Assembly (NCBI GenBank): GCA_964534185.1
Contig: CAZHOH010000004.1
Span: forward strand, 17,438-81,437
Origin: Candidatus Woesearchaeota archaeon
GTDB lineage: Archaea > Nanobdellota > Nanobdellia > Pacearchaeales > GW2011-AR1
Reading direction: 5' to 3'
DNA length: 64,000 nucleotides
The notes under the pieces were generated by a model. That model was not told the origin of the DNA. It worked only from the letters and a program-made list of their open reading frames with translations, and did no database searches. Shown one piece after another: positions 17,665 through 44,952 of this stretch. The stretch's first letter is position 1, and each line of letters opens with the position of its first letter. The position numbers were made by a program, and so were the translations under genes.

Positions 17665-17809
17665 GGGTGCATAGTTTAATGGTAAAATAGGCGGCTCCAG
17701 ATGAAGGAAACCTAAGTTTCCTCTCACACACCTTAAAGGGTGTTTGTTAATGTAAGTTGTGAGAATATGGAGTGACCGCCGGCTGGGGGTTCGATTCCTC
17801 CTGCACCCA
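17665..17809 (+). tRNA. tRNA-Trp (anticodon CCA) containing a 74-nt intron after position 37
   Basis: Acceptor GGGTGCA/TGCACCC with discriminator A, D-arm GTTT-AATGGTA-AAAT, anticodon stem GGCGG (17690-94) with loop CTCCAG. The intron spans 17701-17774, then A38 and CCGCC (17776-80). Variable region GGCT and T-arm GGGGG-TTCGATT-CCTCC follow. Exon CTCCA pairs with intron-end TGGAG, consistent with a BHB motif. The intron has the hairpin GGAAAC-CTAA-GTTTCC. Confidence 0.8.
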
Positions 17810-17815
17810 TTTTTT

Positions 17816-19225
17816 ATGAAGGAAAAAATTAAAAAAAAGGAAAGAGGAAAAGTTGAGAAGTCTTTGAAGTATTCTATAAAAGAGGGAAGTGCGACTTCTT
17901 TTATGTCAGGAGCTGGAGAATCTTATATAGTTCCTTTTGCTCTTGCATTAAATGCTTCGAATGCGCAGATTGGTTACTTAACAAGTTTTGTTGGTTTGTT
18001 CCGTTCTTTTTCACAAATTTTTGGGAGTCGGGCAGTTTATAATGTCAGTCGTAAAAAAATTGTTTTAGTTTCTGTTTTTTCTCAGGCGCTTATTTGGGTT
18101 TTGATTTCTCTTCTTGGTTTTCTTGTTTGGAAAGGAGTTGTTAATGCTTATGCTGCGATTTTTTTAATTATTATTTATAGTATTTATGGAATTGTTGCAA
18201 GTTTTCCAGGACCTGCCTGGTTTTCATGGACGGGTGATTTAGTTCCGAATGAAAGACGGGGTGATTATTTTGCGAACAGGAATAAAATTGTAGGGATTGT
18301 TTCTATGACTGTTACACTTATTGCTGCGTTTTTTCTTGACTATAGTGAGGGTAGTGGTTTTTTACTTCTTGGGTTTATTGTATTGTTTTTGATTGCAGCT
18401 TCGGGAAGATTTGTTTCTGGTTATTATTTTACAAAACATTATGAACCAAATGCAGAGTTTAATCGAGAAGGTTATTTTACCCTTTTGCAATTTATTAAGA
18501 AAGCTCCTTTTAATAATTTCGGGACTTTTGTGATTTTTGTTGCTTTGATAAATATGGCGACGAATTTTGCTGCACCTTTTTTTGCAGTTTATATGTTGAA
18601 GGAGCTTGGATTTAATTATTTTTGGTTTATTGTTGTTGGAATTTCAGGAACTTTATTTACGATTATTGCTATGCCGATGTGGGGAAAAGTTGGTGATGCT
18701 TATGGGAACAGGACTTTATTGAAGATTGGAAGTTTTCTGATTGTTTTGCCTCCTTTTCTTTGGTTATTTGTTGACAAACCTTTGGAGATAATTTTTAGTG
18801 TGAGTGTTTTTGGGGGTTTTGGGTGGGCGGCTTTTAATCTTGCTGCTTCTAATTTTATTTATGATGCTGTTACTCCTCAAAGAAGGGCTATTTGTGTTGC
18901 TTATCATACTGTTTTTTCAGGAATTGGTGTTTTTGTTGGGGCTTTGCTTGGAGGTTTGTTTGTTGAATATGTTTCTTTAAGTTTTACAAATATTTTCTTT
19001 GCAGTGTTTTTTATTTCTAGTTTTTTGAGAGGAGTTTTTGGATTGATATTTATTCCTAGGATAAAAGAAGTTAGGAATTTTCCGAGTTTTGAAAAAAGAA
19101 TTGGGGCTTTGACTTATGCGACTCTTTTGATACCTGGGCCGTTTTATAGTTTGTTTCGTGGCGTGCGGGGGGCGTTTGGTTCTGTCGGCGAGCACGCTAA
19201 GAATGTTGTAAAGAGGAAAAGTTAG
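17816..19225 (+). CDS. MFS-type transporter
   Basis: About 12 hydrophobic helices in two halves, typical of the major facilitator superfamily. Start moved to ATG 17816 because the tracked start at 17759 lies inside the tRNA-Trp. Confidence 0.65.
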   Translation: MKEKIKKKERGKVEKSLKYSIKEGSATSFMSGAGESYIVPFALALNASNAQIGYLTSFVGLFRSFSQIFGSRAVYNVSRKKIVLVSVFSQALIWVLISLLGFLVWKGVVNAYAAIFLIIIYSIYGIVASFPGPAWFSWTGDLVPNERRGDYFANRNKIVGIVSMTVTLIAAFFLDYSEGSGFLLLGFIVLFLIAASGRFVSGYYFTKHYEPNAEFNREGYFTLLQFIKKAPFNNFGTFVIFVALINMATNFAAPFFAVYMLKELGFNYFWFIVVGISGTLFTIIAMPMWGKVGDAYGNRTLLKIGSFLIVLPPFLWLFVDKPLEIIFSVSVFGGFGWAAFNLAASNFIYDAVTPQRRAICVAYHTVFSGIGVFVGALLGGLFVEYVSLSFTNIFFAVFFISSFLRGVFGLIFIPRIKEVRNFPSFEKRIGALTYATLLIPGPFYSLFRGVRGAFGSVGEHAKNVVKRKS

Positions 19226-37986: not shown

Positions 37987-38469
37987 TTATCTTAGTTTTA
38001 ATTTTGAAATGTAGTATGGTTTTTGAAATGTAATGTTGGCTCCTGTTTTTTCCTGCATTCTTATGCTTGAAAGGTTTTCTGGGGAAATGGTTGCCATAAT
38101 TTCATCACATCCAAGAGCTTTTGCAAGTTCTATTTGAGCTTTTTTTAATGCTGAACCAATGCCTTGGTTCCTGAATTCTGGTGCGACGTAAATTCCTTCA
38201 CCCCTGTAAATTTCTTTTGATTCAAGTCTTTCTTCTTTAGGAAATCCTATCCCTTGTACAATTCCTGAGGCATACCCAATAACTTGGGATTTTAGTCTTG
38301 CAATCCATAAGTCATAGAGATGATTCCTTAGGCTGATTAATTTCTCTAATGCTTCGTCTTCTGTAACTGGGCGTTTTAGATATATTTCATCATCTGCTTG
38401 TTTTAATGGAATAATGTCTAATAAGTCCTCATCATTTTCTACTAATCTGACAGTTAAGTCTTGAACCAT
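37987..38469 (-). CDS. GNAT family N-acetyltransferase
   Basis: Acetyl-CoA binding motif RNQGIGSALKKAQIELAK (Q/RxxGxG/A). 160 aa. Confidence 0.75.
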   Translation of the reverse strand: MVQDLTVRLVENDEDLLDIIPLKQADDEIYLKRPVTEDEALEKLISLRNHLYDLWIARLKSQVIGYASGIVQGIGFPKEERLESKEIYRGEGIYVAPEFRNQGIGSALKKAQIELAKALGCDEIMATISPENLSSIRMQEKTGANITFQKPYYISKLKLR

Positions 38470-38498
38470 AATTTTTATTTTATTAAGTACTTTATAAA

Positions 38499-38879
38499 TT
38501 ATTTGGAATATTTCTTTAGTGCTTGTTCTATTGTATGATATATTTGCTGTGTTGTTGTTATTATGAGTCCGTCTATTTCTCCATTTAATGATAAAGAGTA
38601 TGTATTGAATCTTCCTAATTCTTCTTCATCGTCTTCTTTTGTTAAGTCTATGAACTTTCCTGTTATTTCTGTTTTTTCCATGTTGGCTGAAACTTTGTCT
38701 TCTTTAGGATTGTATGTGAGAAATTCTCCTATTGTTTTTGTATTGCATTCGACAGAGGCATTGAACTTTTCTCCTAAAACCTGCACCATTCTGTTTAATG
38801 GGCCTGTTTTTGTTTGTTCTAATGTCAGGCGATTTTTGAAATCTATTTTGTGTGTTTGGAGTGTTTGTTCTAGGTCCAT
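38499..38879 (-). CDS. hypothetical protein
   Basis: 126 aa. Unrecognised. Confidence 0.35.
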   Translation of the reverse strand: MDLEQTLQTHKIDFKNRLTLEQTKTGPLNRMVQVLGEKFNASVECNTKTIGEFLTYNPKEDKVSANMEKTEITGKFIDLTKEDDEEELGRFNTYSLSLNGEIDGLIITTTQQIYHTIEQALKKYSK

Positions 38880-38953
38880 ACCCTTTTTTGCAACTATAGT
38901 TATTTAAATTTTAGTATAGAAATTTTTATTAAGTAAATATTGCTTTTTTTATT

Positions 38954-39127
38954 ATGAGTGAAGTTAATAATTATGAAATTCGAATAACAGGTAATGATAA
39001 TTTTTATGGGCAATATTTGCCTTCTGGTGAGAGATTTTTAGGGCCTGGACTTTTTGATAGTCAAGGAAAGAGGGTTATTGATGATGATTTTAGTTTTGAT
39101 GAAGTAGGGGAAGATATTGTCTTTTGA
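38954..39127 (+). CDS. small hypothetical protein (57 aa)
   Basis: Hand-translated MSEVNNYEIRITGNDNFYGQYLPSGERFLGPGLFDSQGKRVIDDDFSFDEVGEDIVF. It is below the track size cutoff and speculative. Confidence 0.2.
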   Translation: MSEVNNYEIRITGNDNFYGQYLPSGERFLGPGLFDSQGKRVIDDDFSFDEVGEDIVF

Positions 39128-39130
39128 ATT

Positions 39131-40240
39131 TTATTTGTTTTGTCTTAATCTTTCTGCATATTGTCTTATTAGTTGTTGGGTTTGCTCCCAAGATATGCAG
39201 GCGTCTGTTATTGATACTCCATATTGTAGGTTTTGTATTTGTTCTGGTGTTTTGGGAAAGTCTTGTTTTCCTTGATTTAGATTTGATTCTAACATGATTC
39301 CTGTTATGCTGTTGTTTCCTTGGGTTATTTGGTTTAATACATTTTCCGCTACTTGAATTTGTTTTTCGTGAGTTTTGTAGGAGTTAGCGTGGCTACAGTC
39401 GATGACTATGTTTTCTGGAAGTCCTGCTTTTTTTATTAGTTCGAGTGTTTCGCTTAGTTTTTCTGGATAGTAATTTGGTTCTCCGTTGCCGCCTCTTAGT
39501 ACTACGTGGCAGTATTTGTTTCCTTTTGTTTGTATGTTTGTGATTTTTCCGTTTGCGTTGATTCCTGGGAATTTGTGAGGATGTTCTGCAGTTACACAGC
39601 TGTCAATTGCTACTTTTATGTCGCCTGAAGTGTTGTTCTTAAACCCTACTGGCATTGATAGTCCTGAGGCTAGTTCTCTGTGTATTTGAGATTCTGTTGT
39701 TCTTGCGCCGATTGCTGCCCATGAAATTAAGTCGGCCAAGTATTGGGGTAAATCAGTTCTTAAAAATTCGTTTCCACATGGCACCCCCAGTTCATTAATA
39801 TCTAATAAGAATTGTCTGCTTGTTTCAATTCCCTTTTTTAAGTCTTGAGTGTTGTCTAAGTCTGGGTCGTATAAAATTCCTTTCCATCCTATTGTTGTCC
39901 TGGGTTTTTCTAAGTATGTTCTCATAACTATATATAATACGTCGCTGACTTCGTCTGCAAGAGATTTTAGGTTTTTTACATATTTCAGGCTTTGTTCTGG
40001 TGAGTGGATTGAGCATGGGCCACATAGGATGAGTTTTCTTTTGTCTTTTTTATCTAAAATGTTTTTTATTGTTCTCCTTGATTCTAGAACTGTTTGTTTT
40101 GCTTTTTCTGTTAAGGGGTAGGAGTTTTTTATTTCTCTAGGAGTAGGGAAATCTTCGTAGTTTTCTATATTTGCGTCTTCTAAAATTTCTTCCATACCTT
40201 TATTTTTTGAACCTAACATTTTTAAACTTATGCAGGACAT
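39131..40240 (-). CDS. aroG: 3-deoxy-7-phosphoheptulonate (DAHP) synthase, class I alpha (AroG/AroF/AroH type)
   Basis: Near-colinear with E. coli AroG: LILCGPCSIHSPEQ, KPRTTIGWKG, WAAIGARTTESQIHRELASGLSMPVGFKN, CHVVLRGG..PNY, IDCSHANS, GVSITDACI. The true start is possibly the internal Met at 40195. Confidence 0.9.
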   Translation of the reverse strand: MSCISLKMLGSKNKGMEEILEDANIENYEDFPTPREIKNSYPLTEKAKQTVLESRRTIKNILDKKDKRKLILCGPCSIHSPEQSLKYVKNLKSLADEVSDVLYIVMRTYLEKPRTTIGWKGILYDPDLDNTQDLKKGIETSRQFLLDINELGVPCGNEFLRTDLPQYLADLISWAAIGARTTESQIHRELASGLSMPVGFKNNTSGDIKVAIDSCVTAEHPHKFPGINANGKITNIQTKGNKYCHVVLRGGNGEPNYYPEKLSETLELIKKAGLPENIVIDCSHANSYKTHEKQIQVAENVLNQITQGNNSITGIMLESNLNQGKQDFPKTPEQIQNLQYGVSITDACISWEQTQQLIRQYAERLRQNK

Positions 40241-40462: not shown

Positions 40463-41251
40463 TTGAAAGAGGTTACAATTAATAAAATGGAATTTAAATA
40501 TAAGAAACTGAGTGAGAAATTTGCGAATCGTCTAGCTTTGGCTTCGCTTCTTGGTTTTGGAGCTTTGGTAGGTTATGATTCTATTGCTGAGCCAGAGGCT
40601 CGTGGGTTTGGTGCATATGTTTATGAAAGGGATTTAGAGGATATGGAGGGTAGTGAGGATTTAGAGGATAGAGTTGGAAGTGAGGATTGGGAAGAGAGGA
40701 TTTTTAATTTAGATATGATGCTTGGAGCTGTTGATGATTTAGAAGACTATACTGAAAAGTATTTGCTTCCTGAAGAACAAAGGAATGAAGATAATGTTAA
40801 GATTATTGCTGAGGCGCTTTATGCTGAGGCGCGGGGACTGTATCAGAATGAAGATTATCTTAAGAATGTTGGGAGTAGTGTGATAACTCGTGCTATGGAG
40901 AGAAATGAAAGGGTTAGTGATGTTTTGTATAATGGAGAGTATAGCTATGCAAATTCAGGGGATCCAAATAAGAAGATTGTGGGGATGGCAGAAGAGCATG
41001 CTTCTCAAAATTATAAAGATGAAAAAGCATATGAAGTTTGTTTGAAGGTTGCAAGTGACTTGGTTTATAATGGAGCTGATAAATTGCTGACTCATTATTT
41101 TGTTCGTAAGAAAAATAGTGATAATTTTCCTTCTTGGGCAAAGGGCGAGCCAGATGCTGTGATTGAACATGGCGATAGAGTAACAAGATTTTATTACTTG
41201 TCAGATAACGCTGCTAATGAGAAAGGGCAAGTTTTTAGTGGGAAAGTTTAG
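40463..41251 (+). CDS. SleB/CwlJ-like cell-wall hydrolase domain protein with N-terminal membrane anchor
   Basis: N-terminal TM helix (LALASLLGFGALVG). The C-terminal domain has the Hydrolase_2 pattern (AEALYAEARG...VITRAMERN...VSDVLYNGEYSYANSGDPN). Confidence 0.6.
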   Translation: MKEVTINKMEFKYKKLSEKFANRLALASLLGFGALVGYDSIAEPEARGFGAYVYERDLEDMEGSEDLEDRVGSEDWEERIFNLDMMLGAVDDLEDYTEKYLLPEEQRNEDNVKIIAEALYAEARGLYQNEDYLKNVGSSVITRAMERNERVSDVLYNGEYSYANSGDPNKKIVGMAEEHASQNYKDEKAYEVCLKVASDLVYNGADKLLTHYFVRKKNSDNFPSWAKGEPDAVIEHGDRVTRFYYLSDNAANEKGQVFSGKV

Positions 41252-41664
41252 GCAGCTTTTTTTCTGAAGAAGTTTGAAACTTTTGAATATGCGCTTTTTA
41301 TTTTACTTTCTTTTGAATCATTGTATTTTTTCATAGCTTTAAGGGTTTGGTTCTTTTCTTGTTTTTTGTCAAGCCTTTGTTTTTCTTTAGCTAAATAACT
41401 TTTTGCTTCTTCTAAATCTGTTCTATTTCCTTTGTAATTTTCTTCTACGCTATTTATTTGTTTTTGGACAAATTCATAACCTTGTTTACTTAATTGTCTT
41501 CCCTCTTTTTGATATCTTGTTAAATGGTAAATCATTTGGTTAGCGGTTTTTTCTTTTGTAGAATTATCTTTTAATTTTGATTCGATTGTTGCTCTGTCGT
41601 TTTGTCTGTTTCTTATTCTTGTTTCATCATTTTTTCTATAGATATAATAATTGTTTGTGTTCAT
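41248..41664 (-). CDS. coiled-coil hypothetical protein
   Basis: 138 aa, K/E/Q-rich helical. Confidence 0.35.
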   Translation of the reverse strand: MNTNNYYIYRKNDETRIRNRQNDRATIESKLKDNSTKEKTANQMIYHLTRYQKEGRQLSKQGYEFVQKQINSVEENYKGNRTDLEEAKSYLAKEKQRLDKKQEKNQTLKAMKKYNDSKESKIKSAYSKVSNFFRKKAA

Positions 41665-41755
41665 AAAAAACGCAGAATATTGGTGTTTTTAAAATTAATT
41701 GTTTTAGTAATTTTTTAGAAAAAGGTTTTATAAAGTGTGGAGTATCTTATTAATT

Positions 41756-42820
41756 ATGGGAAATGTATTAATGGTAGATAATGAGAAACTTGTGAAGGAT
41801 TTTGGAGCTAGTCGTATCTTTCAGTTAAAAGATTTACCTGACTTTTATACGTTTAAGAAAGGGTTAATATACTCACATAGAGATTTTGATAAGTTTTTTA
41901 GAGCTTTGAAAAAAGGGGAAAAGTGTGCGATTGTTTCTGGGGCTAATGCTTCTGGGACACTTCATTTAGGACATAAAGTTGTTTTTGATACAAATCTTTA
42001 TTTTCAAAAAAAATATGGTGTGCCAGTATTTGTTCCTATTTCTGATGATGAAGCTTATGTTGCTGGGAAAGTTAAAACCCAGGAAGAGGCTTTAAAAAAT
42101 TCTAAAGAACTGGCAAGGCAGTTTTTGGCATATGGTTTTGATCCGCATAAAACTTATTTTATTATAGACCAGGTTTATACTAATATTTATAATTTGGCTA
42201 TAAAATTGTCTAAAAAAATAAATTATTCTGAGATTAAGGCAACTTATGGTTATTCTCCTGAAAATAATATTGGATTGCATTTTTATCCTGCTGTTCAATC
42301 TGCCCATATTCTTTTTCCTCAAGAGAAATTAGGCATAAAGCATGTATTGGTTCCGATAGGTCCTGATGAAGATGCCCATATTAGAATTTGTAGGGATATT
42401 GCTGGAAGAATTGGTTGTGAGAAACCTTCAATATTGCATCTAGCTTTTATGCCAGGAATAGACGGAACTAAAATGTCTAAATCAAAGAATAATGCTATTT
42501 TTCTAAATGAAGATAGTAAATTAGTAACTAAAAAAATTAATCGGGCTTTTTCTGGTGGGCAAAAGACGATTGAAGAACATAGAAAATTAGGGGGCAATCC
42601 TGACGTTGACATATCCTGTCAATACTTATCAAAATTGTTTTTAGATGAGAAAGAAGGAAAGAAATTATTTGAAGATTATAAGGAAGGGAAGTTGTCGAGT
42701 GGGGATGTGAAGAAAATGCTTTCTGAGAAATTAGTTAAAATGCTTGAAGGATTTCAAAAGAATGTTAAAAAGGTTAAAGATTCTGATTTGAATAAAAGTA
42801 TTATGAAAAATGAATTTTGA
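41756..42820 (+). CDS. trpS: tryptophanyl-tRNA synthetase (class I, Trp/Tyr family)
   Basis: HIGH-like motif TLHLGH and the KMSKS motif as KMSKSK. Length fits archaeal TrpRS. Start chosen at ATG 41756; the tracked start at 41735 is GTG. Confidence 0.7.
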   Translation: MGNVLMVDNEKLVKDFGASRIFQLKDLPDFYTFKKGLIYSHRDFDKFFRALKKGEKCAIVSGANASGTLHLGHKVVFDTNLYFQKKYGVPVFVPISDDEAYVAGKVKTQEEALKNSKELARQFLAYGFDPHKTYFIIDQVYTNIYNLAIKLSKKINYSEIKATYGYSPENNIGLHFYPAVQSAHILFPQEKLGIKHVLVPIGPDEDAHIRICRDIAGRIGCEKPSILHLAFMPGIDGTKMSKSKNNAIFLNEDSKLVTKKINRAFSGGQKTIEEHRKLGGNPDVDISCQYLSKLFLDEKEGKKLFEDYKEGKLSSGDVKKMLSEKLVKMLEGFQKNVKKVKDSDLNKSIMKNEF

Positions 42821-42873: not shown

Positions 42874-44952
42874 ATGGATAGAAAATTGGTGATTTTGGGG
42901 TTTGCTTTTGTATTTGGATTTTTGCTTTTTTCTTCGATTAATGTAAGTGCTAATGTTTATTTTACAGGACAGCCACAGGAAGTTTATAATCTTGGTGATA
43001 GAATTGACGTCGGTTTTGGGACTGATGGGACTCCGGGTTGGTTGCAGATAGATTTGATGTGTGGGAATTTGAGTCGGATGGTGGATTTTAGATATTTGGA
43101 TGAAGAGGAGGTGGAGTCTTCGCTTAATATTCCTCTTACAAATAATTTTCTTAGGAATTTGAAAGGTGATTGTTCTTTGAAAATGACTTTTGAGGATGAG
43201 GTCAAAGAGAGTTTAGGATTTAAGATTTCTAATGAAGTGATTACTGAGATAAGTTTTAATCAGAATAGTTTTAATCCGAATGAGACTCTGATTTATACTG
43301 GTAGTGTTCGAAAGCCTAATGGAGAGGATGTTGTAGGATTTGCTGAGGTTTCTTTTAATGGTGTTGAGTTGGAAAGTGTGGTTCCTGTTAATGGTGATTC
43401 TTTTTCTGGAGAGATTTTTATTCCAGGGAATATTGCTTCTGGAAATTATGCTGTTGAGACTTTTGTTTATGAAAAGGACAAGAATGAGGAAGTGACTAAT
43501 TTTGGTTTTTCTAATGCTAGTGTTACTGTTTTACAGCAGCCAAAAAGTTTAGAGGTTGAAGTTTCTAATAGCATTACTCCTGGGGAGAATCTGGAGTTTA
43601 GTGCGATTCTTTTTGATCAGGCAGGCTATAATATTGATGCTGTTCCTGTTGAGTTTGAGATTTATAATGTTGAGGGTGAAAGAGTGTTGAATGTTTTGGG
43701 TGAGACAGGAACTTCAAGTTCTTATAGTATTAGAAAAAATGCTCCTTATGGTTATTGGAATGTAAGTGCAAATGCTAAAGAGTTATCTGATTTGAAGAAT
43801 TTTTATGTTGATAAGTATCAGGAGGCGGAGTTTGAGTTGGTTAATAATACATTGAAAATTACGAATATTGGGAATATTAATTATGATAAGCATGTTGAGA
43901 TTGGTGTTGGTAATCAGACAGAGGTTAAGAATTTGAACTTGAGTTTGGGAGAGAGTGCTGAATTTAAGCTTTCTGCTCCTGATGGGGAGTATGAAATTAA
44001 TGTTAAGGATGGAGTTTCGAGTATTACTGGGAATGTTGTTTTGACTGGAGATGCGATTTCAATTGAACCTGTTCGGCGAGGGGTTTTGGGATGGTTGAGT
44101 GGCAATTTCTTTGCTTGGATTTTTATTATTTTAGTTTTTGGTTTGTTTATCTTGCTTACCTATCGGAAAGTTGTTCAGAAAAAATTTGTTTTGAATTTTG
44201 ATAGTTTGAAATTTGGAAAGAAAAATAAAGAGGAAGGTAAACCAACTTCTATGAAAGTTAGTAAAGGAGGGGTTTTGAAAGTTGGAAGTGATGGCAAAAA
44301 GTCAAGTGTTGATAATGTAGGTTATGAAGCGAGTTCTTCACTTGTTATTGATGGACAGAAGCAGAATGCAGGGATTCTTGCTTTGAAAATTAAAAATCAT
44401 TCTGAATTGGATAAGGTGAAGGGTTCGAATGCTCATGAAGCAATTAATAAGGTTGTCGATAAGATTTCGCATAATGGGGGAAAGGTTTATCGGGCGAATG
44501 ATTATATTGTGGGGATTTTCAGTCCCAGCATTACAAAGACTTTTGATAATAGTTTGAATGCTATTAAGACTGGGAAAGAGATTTCAGATATTTTTGCAGA
44601 GCATAATAAAAAGTATAGTCATAAGATTAAGTATGGAATTGGGGTTAATGAGGGGGAAATTGTTACTAAAAAAGATAATGGGAAGTTTTTGTTTACTCCT
44701 TTGAGAAATGTTTTGTCTCAAAGCAAAATGATTGCAGATATTTCTGAGGGTGGTGTTTTGATGAGTGAGAGTTCTCAGAAAAAAGTTATGTCTAAAGTGA
44801 AGGCAATTCCTAATCAGTCTCAGAGAGGTATTAAGACTTTTGCTATTGGAGAGATTAATGATAATAGGGAGAATCAACAGTTTATTGAAGAGTTTTTGAA
44901 AAGGAATAAGGGTGATTTTAAACAATTGAGTGATTATAGGTTGAGGAAATAG
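42874..44952 (+). CDS. large membrane protein: signal peptide, extracellular beta-sandwich-like repeats, single TM, cytoplasmic nucleotidyl-cyclase-like (degenerate) domain
   Basis: N-terminal signal/TM and an internal TM (WIFIILVFGLFILLTY). The C-terminal ~170 aa resemble a class III cyclase fold (ILALKIK...NDYIVGIF...KIKYGIGVNEGEIV) but the first metal-binding Asp is replaced by Lys. Confidence 0.45.
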   Translation: MDRKLVILGFAFVFGFLLFSSINVSANVYFTGQPQEVYNLGDRIDVGFGTDGTPGWLQIDLMCGNLSRMVDFRYLDEEEVESSLNIPLTNNFLRNLKGDCSLKMTFEDEVKESLGFKISNEVITEISFNQNSFNPNETLIYTGSVRKPNGEDVVGFAEVSFNGVELESVVPVNGDSFSGEIFIPGNIASGNYAVETFVYEKDKNEEVTNFGFSNASVTVLQQPKSLEVEVSNSITPGENLEFSAILFDQAGYNIDAVPVEFEIYNVEGERVLNVLGETGTSSSYSIRKNAPYGYWNVSANAKELSDLKNFYVDKYQEAEFELVNNTLKITNIGNINYDKHVEIGVGNQTEVKNLNLSLGESAEFKLSAPDGEYEINVKDGVSSITGNVVLTGDAISIEPVRRGVLGWLSGNFFAWIFIILVFGLFILLTYRKVVQKKFVLNFDSLKFGKKNKEEGKPTSMKVSKGGVLKVGSDGKKSSVDNVGYEASSSLVIDGQKQNAGILALKIKNHSELDKVKGSNAHEAINKVVDKISHNGGKVYRANDYIVGIFSPSITKTFDNSLNAIKTGKEISDIFAEHNKKYSHKIKYGIGVNEGEIVTKKDNGKFLFTPLRNVLSQSKMIADISEGGVLMSESSQKKVMSKVKAIPNQSQRGIKTFAIGEINDNRENQQFIEEFLKRNKGDFKQLSDYRLRK

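What the first reader, a model, noticed from the sequence alone, without database searches (positions are those of the whole stretch)
40463..41251. SleB/CwlJ-type peptidoglycan hydrolase domain in an archaeal context
A membrane-anchored protein carries a bacterial spore-cortex-lytic-enzyme-like domain. Archaea have no murein. Such enzymes in DPANN or other episymbionts could act on a bacterial partner or prey, or be a remnant of HGT.
Basis: partly seen in the sequence, partly recalled or inferred. Interest (0 to 1): 0.55.

Follow-up and report, generated by a model that had tools for sequence, protein, structure and literature searches.

The report
Exported SleB-like wall-cutting enzyme in Pacearchaeota
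A tiny symbiotic-type archaeon (Pacearchaeota) carries an exported, highly diverged relative of the bacterial SleB/CwlJ cell-wall-cutting enzymes at a fixed chromosomal position, which suggests that cutting bacterial cell wall is a routine part of this lineage's life, though nobody has tested the activity.

Summary
The ORF is real (40463-41251; probable ATG start 40487, 254 aa). It sits in a Pacearchaeota (DPANN) chromosome.

**Domain identity.** Deeper tests overturn it:
- A family profile retrieves Pfam-valid Hydrolase_2 proteins (E to 6.6e-15).
- hhalign against six of them gives 99.3% probability, and their HMM scores this protein 66 bits.
- A 29-sequence archaeal profile hits only SleB among meaningful PDB matches (E 1.9e-4).
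- The catalytic Glu (E114) is conserved.
- Foldseek finds phage "cell wall hydrolase/SleB" models, but not SleB in the PDB.

**Synteny.** The gene lies near ThrRS and TrpRS in every related contig examined. In four genomes sampled through ThrRS alone, three slot genes match Hydrolase_2 (two above Pfam's cut-off). The fourth is an unrelated SLT (GH23) lytic transglycosylase.

**Reading.** This is a conserved, exported glycan-strand-cleaving enzyme, not an HGT remnant. The most likely target is bacterial peptidoglycan, but substrate and activity are untested. DPANN murein transglycosylases are already known, so I class it as a new member of a known kind.

The parts
40487..41251 (+). Gene for the exported Hydrolase_2-like protein. 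The probable ATG start gives 254 aa; the alternative TTG start at 40463 gives 262 aa. Stop codon at 41249-41251.
   Evidence: ORF list. P0001, 254 aa, is 100% identical; the 262-aa NCBI form is P0141. It is the only ORF in the window matched by the family HMMs.
40487..40588 (+). N-terminal export or anchor segment, residues 1-34 (254-aa numbering). It has a Lys-rich n-region (KYKKLSEK), a hydrophobic region L16-Y30, and a possible S-I-A/E cleavage site.
   Evidence: Hydrophobicity scan and family comparison: 9 of 32 relatives carry an RR-x-F-[LIV] twin-arginine motif at this position, while the window protein has lost the RR. AF2 predicts a helix at 10-25. The cleavage site is inferred by eye and was not computed.
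40589..40771 (+). Acidic, poorly conserved linker, residues 35-95 (34% Asp+Glu). It includes a duplicated GSEDLEDRV/GSEDWEERI motif.
   Evidence: Composition; low pLDDT; variable length and sequence in alignments A1 and A4.
40772..41221 (+). Catalytic Hydrolase_2 (SleB/CwlJ-type) domain, residues ~96-245. Family motifs are EAxYAEARG, VTRAxE, QYSY, THYFVR, PxWA and H..TRFYY.
   Evidence: hhalign against Pfam-valid Hydrolase_2 proteins gives 99.3% probability, E 7.6e-21, over residues 106-229 of the 262-aa form. Reciprocal HMM scores are 66.3 and 66.1 bits. The archaeal profile hits SleB 4fet_B at E 1.9e-4. The AF2 domain has pLDDT ~95. The top Foldseek BFVD hits are phage cell wall hydrolases.
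40826..40828 (+). Codon GAG for Glu114 (Glu122 in the 262-aa form), the predicted catalytic general acid.
   Evidence: It aligns with the first Glu of SleB's YGESRGE motif in 4f55_A and 4fet_B. It is invariant in A1, A4 and A5 and present in all 70 sequences inspected. Literature reports that the catalytic Glu is essential in SleB (PMC12331253) and in a SleB-like T6SS effector, where E108Q was tested (PMC11148199).
36249..37937 (-). Threonyl-tRNA synthetase with the archaea-specific editing domain. It is a syntenic anchor and a taxonomic marker.
   Evidence: Pfam. Best named relatives are Candidatus Pacearchaeota, 66-75% identity. It neighbours the hydrolase gene in L001-L005, L009, L010 and L012-L016.
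41735..42820 (+). Tryptophanyl-tRNA synthetase, the second syntenic anchor. It is inverted here relative to most related loci.
   Evidence: Pfam; synteny tables.
42874..44952 (+). A 692-aa surface/membrane protein with an MG2 domain. It is a conserved neighbour of the block, and no functional link is shown.
   Evidence: Pfam MG2, 36 bits. Homologues of 669-727 aa occur in L001, L005, L008, L009, L012, L013 and L015, with 37-45% identity in the four loci compared.

Best explanation
The gene encodes an exported enzyme of about 250 aa from a Pacearchaeota (DPANN) archaeon. It has an N-terminal Sec/Tat-type signal or anchor, an acidic flexible linker, and a C-terminal catalytic domain that is a strongly diverged member of the Hydrolase_2 (SleB/CwlJ) lytic-transglycosylase family. 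Shown: homology to Hydrolase_2, conservation of the catalytic Glu (E114), an archaeal chromosomal context, and vertical retention at a fixed position near ThrRS and TrpRS. Also shown: one lineage carries an SLT/GH23 lytic transglycosylase of the same size and layout at that position instead. Inferred: outside the cell, E114 acts as the general acid that cleaves the MurNAc-beta-1,4-GlcNAc bond of peptidoglycan glycan strands. Inferred: because these archaea are not known to make murein, the substrate is bacterial peptidoglycan. That could mean local breaching of a bacterial host or prey wall, or release of muropeptides from bacterial debris as food. Unlike true SleB, it has no PG_binding_1 domain and no spore context, so nothing suggests dependence on muramic delta-lactam.
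For: Homology:
- The profile of the 11 closest relatives finds 135 representative proteins.
- 72 of the 140 collected proteins match Pfam PF07486 at E<=1e-3, best 2.6e-23.
- Six checked proteins pass Pfam's cut-off at 43.7-64.8 bits against 27.
- hhalign of the family against those six gives 99.3% probability, E 7.6e-21.
- An HMM of those six scores the window protein 66 bits and nothing else in the window.
- The 29-sequence archaeal profile has SleB chains (4fet_B E 1.9e-4; 4f55_A 0.0099) as its only meaningful PDB matches.
- The bridge set hits SleB at 4.7e-11.
- The nine best Foldseek BFVD hits are all phage proteins. Those that carry a name are 'Cell wall hydrolase' or 'SleB' (probability 0.98-1.0), and the E-value then jumps to >1.6.

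Catalytic Glu: aligned and conserved.

Export: Tat motifs or signal-like N-termini occur across the family.

Positional orthology:
- The gene lies beside or near ThrRS and TrpRS in L001-L005 and L008-L010.
- In four genomes chosen only through ThrRS, the slot holds a Hydrolase_2 gene in three (26.0, 31.7 and 43.5 bits) and an SLT gene in one (37.2 bits against a cut-off of 21.3).

Constraint: the domain is 35-37% identical where TrpRS is 34-43%.

Literature: Pacearchaeota and Woesearchaeota carry extracellular murein transglycosylases thought to target bacteria (PMC8204110; PMC9723730). Archaeal peptidoglycan hydrolases do kill bacteria (PMC12352652). SleB-type domains serve outside sporulation, as a T6SS effector and in Zymomonas.
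Against: - The protein itself has no significant Pfam Hydrolase_2 hit.
- Foldseek against the PDB did not retrieve SleB with either model, including the one with domain pLDDT ~95. BFVD E-values (4e-3 to 5e-2) do not reach 1e-3.
- The Asn of the family's N-R motif is Thr here.
- No cell-wall-binding domain was detected.
- No bacterial host of Pacearchaeota is known.
- A core, syntenic, vertically inherited gene differs from the patchy, plasmid-biased pattern reported for weaponised archaeal PG hydrolases.
- No enzymatic data exist for any member.
- The six bridge proteins were chosen from hits of the query profile, so the hhalign and HMM E-values are somewhat optimistic.
Confidence: 0.6

Rival explanations
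1. It is a housekeeping autolysin for the archaeon's own envelope. Under this reading Pacearchaeota build a murein-like or other MurNAc/GlcNAc-type glycan layer, and this exported lytic transglycosylase remodels it during growth and division.
For: It behaves as a core gene at a fixed locus among housekeeping genes, is under purifying selection, and is functionally replaced in situ by SLT rather than lost. That is how bacterial housekeeping lytic transglycosylases behave, and it is unlike the patchy distribution of weapons. In Zymomonas a SleB homologue is a remodelling enzyme.
Against: None of the 40 window ORFs scanned hit a Mur ligase, MraY, MurG or PBP family, and none appears in the flanks of the related loci. 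The DPANN papers read describe murein-degrading enzymes and no murein synthesis. Only about 64 kb of the genome was seen.
Confidence: 0.07
2. The domain has been retargeted to a glycan other than peptidoglycan: chitin or chitooligosaccharides, pseudomurein, or surface glycans of an archaeal host. It would serve attachment to, or feeding on, an archaeal host or detrital polysaccharide.
For: The sequence is very diverged from canonical Hydrolase_2 (no Pfam hit; the N-R motif is T-R). Cultivated DPANN have archaeal hosts (abstracts listed). LysM and related modules can bind chitin.
Against: The slot is filled in other lineages by canonical Hydrolase_2 and by an SLT with its E-S, G-x-x-Q and S-Y-N-A-G motifs. 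Both families are known only as peptidoglycan-cleaving enzymes (family knowledge; PMC6403190).
Confidence: 0.15
3. It is a catalytically inactive derivative that serves only as a glycan-binding or adhesion module.
For: High divergence, loss of the Asn of the N-R motif, and the absence of any biochemical data.
Against: The catalytic Glu and six or more further positions (R116, R135, H203, P215, W217, T233) are invariant or nearly so across subfamilies that share only ~25% identity.
Confidence: 0.05
4. It is a recent horizontal acquisition, a decaying remnant, a prophage endolysin or bacterial contamination of the bin.
For: Hydrolase_2 is overwhelmingly a bacterial and phage family. Structural matches are phage proteins, and a relative hits the PHROG endolysin family phrog_938.
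Against: The gene is flanked on the same contig by archaeal core genes. Synteny is conserved in more than 10 independent contigs from marine, freshwater and subsurface samples. The ORF is intact with its catalytic residue. No phage genes lie nearby, and composition does not change at the gene.
Confidence: 0.03

Closest known systems
SleB / CwlJ spore cortex lytic enzymes of Bacillus (Pfam PF07486 Hydrolase_2; PDB 4F55, 4FET)
   Same: The catalytic domain is homologous and has the same motif order (Y-x-E-x-R-G helix, x-R, Q-[FY]-S, H-Y, P-x-W, H-x-F). The catalytic Glu aligns. These are the only meaningful PDB matches of the archaeal profile.
   Different: The window sequence is below Pfam detection. 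It has no PG_binding_1 N-terminal domain and no YpeB-type partner in the neighbourhood. There is no spore or muramic-delta-lactam context, and the host is an archaeon. Foldseek did not link the model to 4F55 or 4FET.
Non-sporulation Hydrolase_2 enzymes: phage virion-associated or endolysin 'cell wall hydrolase SleB' proteins, Rhs/T6SS SleB-like toxins, and Zymomonas SleB
   Same: These are its closest sequence and structure relatives (A3 set; BFVD hits; phrog_938). The domain is used as a stand-alone or C-terminal module that acts on ordinary peptidoglycan from outside or within the periplasm. In the T6SS effector, an E108Q mutant of the aligned Glu was tested.
   Different: Those are bacterial or phage proteins delivered by phage tails, Rhs tips (P0051, P0054, P0099) or T6SS. 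This one is a chromosomal core gene of an archaeon with its own signal sequence and no immunity gene.
Large extracellular murein lytic transglycosylase (SLT/GH23) proteins of Pacearchaeota and Woesearchaeota (Castelle et al. 2021, fam00969; Vigneron et al. 2022)
   Same: Same lineages, extracellular location and predicted bond cleaved. Both carry the same ecological inference of interaction with bacteria.
   Different: Those proteins reach up to ~3000 aa and carry an SLT domain. This one is ~250 aa with a Hydrolase_2-type domain that Pfam- and CAZy-based surveys would miss. A small 228-aa SLT protein does replace it at the same locus in L015/L016.
Modular archaeal peptidoglycan hydrolases that kill bacteria (Strock et al. 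2025, PMC12352652)
   Same: These are archaeal secreted enzymes (Sec or Tat signals) of bacterial ancestry aimed at peptidoglycan, and they are prominent in Nanoarchaeota.
   Different: Those were defined by a catalytic domain plus a cell-wall-binding domain, are patchily distributed and are plasmid-enriched. This protein has no recognisable binding domain and is a syntenic, vertically inherited gene. PF07486 does not appear in that paper's text or in the supplements held.

Membership tests
Pfam PF07486 Hydrolase_2 (SleB/CwlJ cell wall hydrolase) | The sequence scores at or above Pfam's gathering threshold (27 bits) against the family HMM. | tested here: not met
   The window protein has no Hydrolase_2 hit even at E<=10. 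Syntenic orthologues score 16.3, 22.8, 26.0, 31.7 and 43.5 bits.
Pfam PF07486 Hydrolase_2 (SleB/CwlJ cell wall hydrolase) | Homology to threshold-passing members can be demonstrated by profile methods. | tested here: met
   hhalign gives 99.3% probability, E 7.6e-21. An HMM of six threshold-passing members scores the protein 66 bits. The query-family profile hits P0033, a 49.5-bit Hydrolase_2 protein, at 6.6e-15 among 1.8 billion proteins.
Pfam PF07486 Hydrolase_2 (SleB/CwlJ cell wall hydrolase) | A catalytic glutamate lies in the N-terminal helix motif (Y-G-E-x-R-G-E in SleB). | tested here: met
   E114 (254-aa numbering) aligns with the first Glu of YGESRGE in 4f55_A and 4fet_B. It is invariant in the family. 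The statement that this Glu is the catalytic residue rests on the literature and on my own knowledge of Jing 2012 and Li 2012, which were not readable here.
Pfam PF07486 Hydrolase_2 (SleB/CwlJ cell wall hydrolase) | The fold matches the SleB catalytic domain (lysozyme/transglycosylase-like). | tested here: inconclusive
   Foldseek against the PDB gave no SleB hit with either model. Foldseek against BFVD gave nine top phage hits, the named ones being cell wall hydrolase or SleB models, at probability 0.98-1.0 but E only 4e-3 to 5e-2.
Pfam PF07486 Hydrolase_2 (SleB/CwlJ cell wall hydrolase) | Lytic transglycosylase or muramidase activity on peptidoglycan. | not testable with these tools
   This needs enzyme assays on sacculi and product analysis.
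SleB proper (germination-specific cortex lytic enzyme) | An N-terminal PG_binding_1 domain, a YpeB partner, and spore cortex (muramic delta-lactam) as substrate in an endospore former. | tested here: not met
   Pfam finds no PG_binding_1. No PepSY/YpeB-type neighbour is among the scanned ORFs. The organism is a Pacearchaeota archaeon.
DPANN large extracellular SLT/GH23 murein transglycosylases (fam00969 of Castelle et al. 2021) | An SLT (PF01464) domain in a very large extracellular protein. | tested here: not met
   The protein is 254 aa with no SLT hit. The SLT protein at the same slot in L015 shows no similarity to the Hydrolase_2-type HMMs (about 3 bits).
Modular archaeal peptidoglycan hydrolases (Strock et al. 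2025) | At least one catalytic domain plus one recognised cell-wall-binding domain. | tested here: not met
   Pfam finds no LysM, PG_binding, SH3 or other binding domain. The region before the catalytic domain is an acidic, low-confidence linker.
Tat- or Sec-exported protein | An N-terminal signal with a charged n-region and hydrophobic h-region; for Tat, an S/T-R-R-x-F-L motif. | tested here: inconclusive
   An n-region and a 15-residue h-region are present, but the RR motif is absent in the window protein. It is present in 9 of 32 relatives. No signal-peptide predictor was available.

The most novel reading that the evidence does not exclude
Pacearchaeota themselves possess a murein-like glycan layer, and the enzyme at this invariant housekeeping locus (Hydrolase_2-type, or SLT-type in some lineages) is their own growth and division autolysin rather than a tool against bacteria. 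The evidence does not exclude this. The gene behaves like a core housekeeping gene and is replaced rather than lost, and only 64 kb of the genome was visible.
Probability: 0.05. Interest if true: 0.9.

Novelty: new member of a known kind. Interest (0 to 1): 0.42.

Why it matters
The hosts and food sources of Pacearchaeota, among the most abundant uncultured DPANN archaea, are unknown. Published arguments for a bacterial association rest on large GH23 transglycosylases found in only some genomes. One study noted their absence in chimney Pacearchaeota (PMC11537232).

This family is largely invisible to Pfam- and CAZy-style annotation, yet it occupies a fixed chromosomal position in every related contig examined. 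If that holds genome-wide, the peptidoglycan-cleaving potential of Pacearchaeota has been under-counted, and cutting murein is an ancestral, constitutive trait of the lineage rather than an occasional acquisition.

The in-place swap between Hydrolase_2 and SLT enzymes gives a rare genomic argument for what activity is being selected. The enzyme is small and easy to express, so the hypothesis is directly testable. It would also add a new divergent clade to a lytic-transglycosylase family of interest for enzybiotics.

Tried and rejected
- **Direct single-sequence searches.** Pfam, NCBIfam and PDB phmmer gave no relevant hit. PHROGs gave nothing for the window protein, and only a relative (P0010) hit the endolysin phrog_938.
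- **First AF2 model.** Built from 11 sequences, it was poor (pLDDT 65), and Foldseek against the PDB returned noise.
- **Second AF2 model.** It was good (domain pLDDT ~95), but Foldseek against the PDB still returned only noise and not SleB. I could not superpose coordinates myself.
- **Genome-contig scans.** The distribution across GTDB species could therefore not be measured.
- **Other look-ups.** The listing of cluster members gave no organism names. The 262-aa form is not on record in the look-up of encoding contigs. The two SleB structure papers (PMC3621120, PMC3415495) are not held.
- **Arms-race hypothesis, tested and dropped.** I asked whether the gene evolves exceptionally fast. The domain's identity between loci is similar to that of TrpRS and the MG2 protein.
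- **Immunity or partner gene, considered and rejected.** The overlapping 138-aa ORF (41248-41664, minus strand) is not conserved in the related loci.
- **Window paralogues.** A search of the window for a second copy found none.
- **Murein synthesis genes.** I looked for them among 40 window ORFs and found none.
Full report

The coordinates 40463-41251 (+) match a 262-aa ORF with a TTG start. An in-frame ATG at 40487 gives 254 aa and matches a public gene call exactly (P0001). An NCBI call uses the longer form (P0141). I use 254-aa numbering below.

The N-terminus has a Lys-rich stretch followed by a 15-residue hydrophobic segment. Next comes a 61-residue acidic linker with 34% Asp+Glu. A C-terminal domain of about 150 residues follows.

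The window is archaeal:
- ThrRS carries the archaea-specific editing domain.
- aIF5B, Rpb7/RpoE, TYW3, wyosine and diphthamide synthesis genes are present.
- A 145-nt tRNA match, longer than the 71-position model and so consistent with an intron, lies at 17665-17809.
- The named best relatives of the ThrRS are all Candidatus Pacearchaeota/Nanoarchaeota, at 66-75% identity.

**2. Is the domain SleB/CwlJ-like?**

Direct searches say no. Pfam gives no Hydrolase_2 hit even at E<=10. NCBIfam gives nothing, and phmmer against the PDB gives nothing relevant.

Profile methods say yes.
- The 11 closest relatives (34-42% identity, none with a precomputed Pfam domain) were aligned as A1.
- The A1 profile ranks SleB structures 4fet and 4f55 first in the PDB, but only at E 0.26-0.5.
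- An exhaustive HMMER search of 1.84 billion representative proteins with A1 found 135 proteins at E<=1e-3.
- Of the 140 collected proteins, 72 match PF07486 at E<=1e-3, best 2.6e-23, and no other family recurs.
- Six that I checked individually pass Pfam's gathering score, at 43.7-64.8 bits against 27. Their E-values to the query-family profile range from 6.6e-15 to 4.7e-6.
- hhalign of A1 against an alignment of those six (A3) gives 99.3% probability and E 7.6e-21 over 121 columns.
- An HMM built only from those six scores the window protein 66 bits. Among 431 ORF segments of the window it picks this ORF alone, at 7.8e-20 with the next best at 0.12.
- A broader archaeal profile (A4, 29 sequences) has SleB chains as its only meaningful PDB matches: 4fet_B at E 1.9e-4 and 4f55_A at 0.0099. 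A3 hits SleB at 4.7e-11.

One caveat applies. The six bridge proteins were taken from the query profile's own hit list, so those E-values are somewhat optimistic. Their Pfam membership is independent of that choice.

**3. Structure**

The first AF2 model, from 11 sequences, was weak (pLDDT 65). The second, from 140 sequences, has pLDDT of about 95 over residues 90-245.

Foldseek against the PDB returned only noise for both models and did not find SleB. This is a real negative that I cannot explain.

Foldseek against BFVD gave nine top hits that are all phage proteins. Those that carry a name are 'Cell wall hydrolase' or 'Cell wall hydrolase, SleB' (probability 0.98-1.0, E 4e-3 to 5e-2). The E-value then jumps to >1.6. 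Structural support is therefore moderate rather than decisive.

**4. Catalytic residue**

The Glu of the family motif E-A-x-Y-A-E-A-R-G is E114, encoded by codon 40826-40828. It aligns with the first Glu of SleB's Y-G-E-S-R-G-E. It is invariant in the family alignments and present in all 70 sequences inspected.

The literature reports that the catalytic Glu is essential in SleB (PMC12331253). The aligned Glu was also tested by an E108Q mutation in a SleB-like T6SS effector (PMC11148199).

Other positions are invariant or nearly so: R116, R135, H203, P215, W217 and T233. The Asn of the canonical N-R motif is Thr here.

**5. Positional orthology: the strongest independent evidence**

Contigs carrying relatives show the same block: ThrRS, this gene, TrpRS and an MG2-domain membrane protein of about 690 aa. 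They include a Pacearchaeota MAG, TARA Oceans and other samples (L001-L005, L008, L009). L010, a short contig, shows only ThrRS beside the gene. This holds even for relatives at about 26-35% identity.

To remove selection bias I sampled four genomes through ThrRS homologues only. The results were:

| Locus | Slot gene length | Pfam family | Score (cut-off) |
|---|---|---|---|
| L012 | 240 aa | PF07486 Hydrolase_2 | 26.0 bits (27) |
| L013 | 201 aa | PF07486 Hydrolase_2 | 31.7 bits (27) |
| L014 | 224 aa | PF07486 Hydrolase_2 | 43.5 bits (27) |
| L015/L016 | 228 aa | PF01464 SLT | 37.2 bits (21.3) |

In L012 and L014 other genes lie between the slot gene and ThrRS, as they do in the window.

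The L015/L016 protein carries a signal-like N-terminus and the E-S, G-x-x-Q and S-Y-N-A-G motifs. It shows no similarity to the Hydrolase_2-type HMMs (about 3 bits).

So the slot holds a gradient from canonical to Pfam-invisible Hydrolase_2 proteins. In one lineage it holds a different lytic-transglycosylase family with the same architecture. That argues that selection maintains an exported glycan-strand-cleaving activity at this locus.

A second archaeal subfamily (P0022, P0026), with a Cys after the hydrophobic segment, sits next to rpL35Ae and a Na+/H+ exchanger.

**6. Evolutionary mode**

Between the window and L009, ThrRS is 75% identical, the hydrolase domain 35%, TrpRS 43% and the MG2 protein 37%. 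Against L001 the values are 50, 37, 34 and 45%.

The domain is thus about as constrained as a tRNA synthetase in these fast-evolving genomes. I found no sign of decay and no exceptional arms-race rate. 'Remnant of HGT' is not supported. The transfer from bacteria or phages must be old, predating the divergence of these Pacearchaeota.

**7. Export**

Nine of 32 relatives carry an RR-x-F-[LIV] twin-arginine motif, and others have Sec-like or lipobox-like N-termini. The window protein lacks the RR but keeps the charged and hydrophobic regions. I could not distinguish a cleaved signal from a signal anchor.

**8. Mechanism proposed**

*Shown:* the homology, the catalytic Glu, an export-type N-terminus, and conserved synteny with an SLT replacement.

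*Inferred:*
- The protein is exported and either stays tethered or is released.
- The acidic linker spaces the domain from the membrane.
- E114 protonates the glycosidic oxygen of the MurNAc-beta-1,4-GlcNAc bond.
- The substrate is bacterial peptidoglycan, either to breach the wall of a bacterial host or prey locally (as phage virion-associated SleB-type lysins do) or to release muropeptides from necromass.

No murein synthesis gene is among the 40 window ORFs scanned. I put about 0.95 on the domain identity and about 0.6 on the full functional statement.

**9. Rivals**

- **Own-envelope autolysin (0.07).** Its core-gene behaviour fits this reading. The lack of any sign of murein synthesis speaks against it.
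- **Retargeted to another glycan such as chitin, pseudomurein or host archaeal glycans (0.15).** Divergence allows it. The canonical Hydrolase_2 and SLT proteins at the same slot argue against it.
- **Inactive binding module (0.05).** The conserved Glu argues against it.
- **Recent HGT, prophage or contamination (0.03).** Synteny and archaeal flanks contradict it.

**10. Comparison with what is known**

DPANN murein lytic transglycosylases are already described, as large SLT/GH23 proteins in Pacearchaeota and Woesearchaeota. They are interpreted as evidence of interaction with bacteria (PMC8204110; PMC9723730). Archaeal modular PG hydrolases have been shown to kill bacteria (PMC12352652).

I found no paper in the library that links SleB or 'cell wall hydrolase' with DPANN or Pacearchaeota. 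PF07486 is absent from the Strock et al. text and the supplements held.

One study reports chimney Pacearchaeota that lack GH23 but are rich in muramoyltetrapeptide carboxypeptidase (PMC11537232). A Pfam-invisible glycan-cleaving enzyme would fit that gap, but I did not test it.

**Verdict**

This is a new, diverged member of a known kind: an exported murein-cleaving enzyme in DPANN archaea. The added observation is its fixed locus and the in-place swap of enzyme family. Interest is moderate.

Noticed in passing
window 1-64000 (whole window); also L001-L004, L009: Extreme strand compositional asymmetry. The + strand has G 21.9%, C 12.1%, T 38.8% and A 27.2% (GC skew +0.29, AT skew -0.18). At third codon positions the + strand GC skew is +0.75 in + strand genes and +0.55 in - strand genes, so it does not depend on the coding strand. 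Marine Pacearchaeota loci L001-L004 (0.25-0.38) and L009 (0.19) share it. L012-L016 do not (absolute skew below 0.07).
   Followed up: partly
L015:7214-7900 (-) and L016:2328-3014 (-): At the exact ThrRS/TrpRS slot that holds the Hydrolase_2-type gene elsewhere, this Pacearchaeota lineage has a 228-aa signal-bearing SLT (PF01464, 37.2 bits) lytic transglycosylase. It shows no sequence similarity to the Hydrolase_2-type profiles, so this is an in-place swap of enzyme family.
   Followed up: yes
window 42874-44952 (+): A conserved neighbour: a 692-aa protein with a signal sequence, an MG2 (alpha-2-macroglobulin-type) domain and one transmembrane segment. The only PDB matches of its ~240-aa cytoplasmic tail are class III adenylate cyclases, and they are weak (E 0.014 and 0.077). 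It is syntenic with the hydrolase in L001, L005, L008, L009, L012, L013 and L015.
   Followed up: partly
window 37987-40240 (-): Three genes lie between ThrRS and the hydrolase gene: a GNAT acetyltransferase, a 126-aa ORF, and a class-I (AroG-type) DAHP synthase (PF00793, 260 bits). Related loci have different content there: a 90-aa gene in L001, a 170-aa gene in L005, none in L009. A lone shikimate-pathway entry enzyme is unexpected in a genome-reduced DPANN archaeon.
   Followed up: no
window 17665-17809 (+): Rfam finds a tRNA match of 145 nt (45.8 bits) against a 71-position model, consistent with an intron. ARAGORN does not report it. It overlaps the mechanically listed GTG start of the MFS transporter ORF 17759-19225, whose true start is probably further downstream.
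   Followed up: no
L006:8001-9098 and L011:823-1821: A second archaeal subfamily of the same diverged Hydrolase_2-like domain (P0026 365 aa, P0022 332 aa) has a Cys directly after the hydrophobic segment, which looks like a lipobox. It has its own conserved neighbourhood of ribosomal protein L35Ae and a Na+/H+ exchanger with a TrkA_N domain.
   Followed up: partly
proteins P0051, P0054, P0099 (hits): Three of the closest sequence relatives have the domain directly after an Rhs/YD-repeat tip motif (NNPxxxxDPxG). P0051 and P0054 pass Pfam's Hydrolase_2 cut-off; P0099 was not checked individually. The layout is that of a C-terminal toxin of a bacterial polymorphic toxin system.
   Followed up: partly
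window 41248-41664 (-): A 138-aa Lys-rich ORF of low complexity lies convergent with the hydrolase gene and overlaps its stop codon by 4 nt. It has no Pfam hit and is not conserved at this position in L001 or L009. It may not be a real gene.
   Followed up: partly
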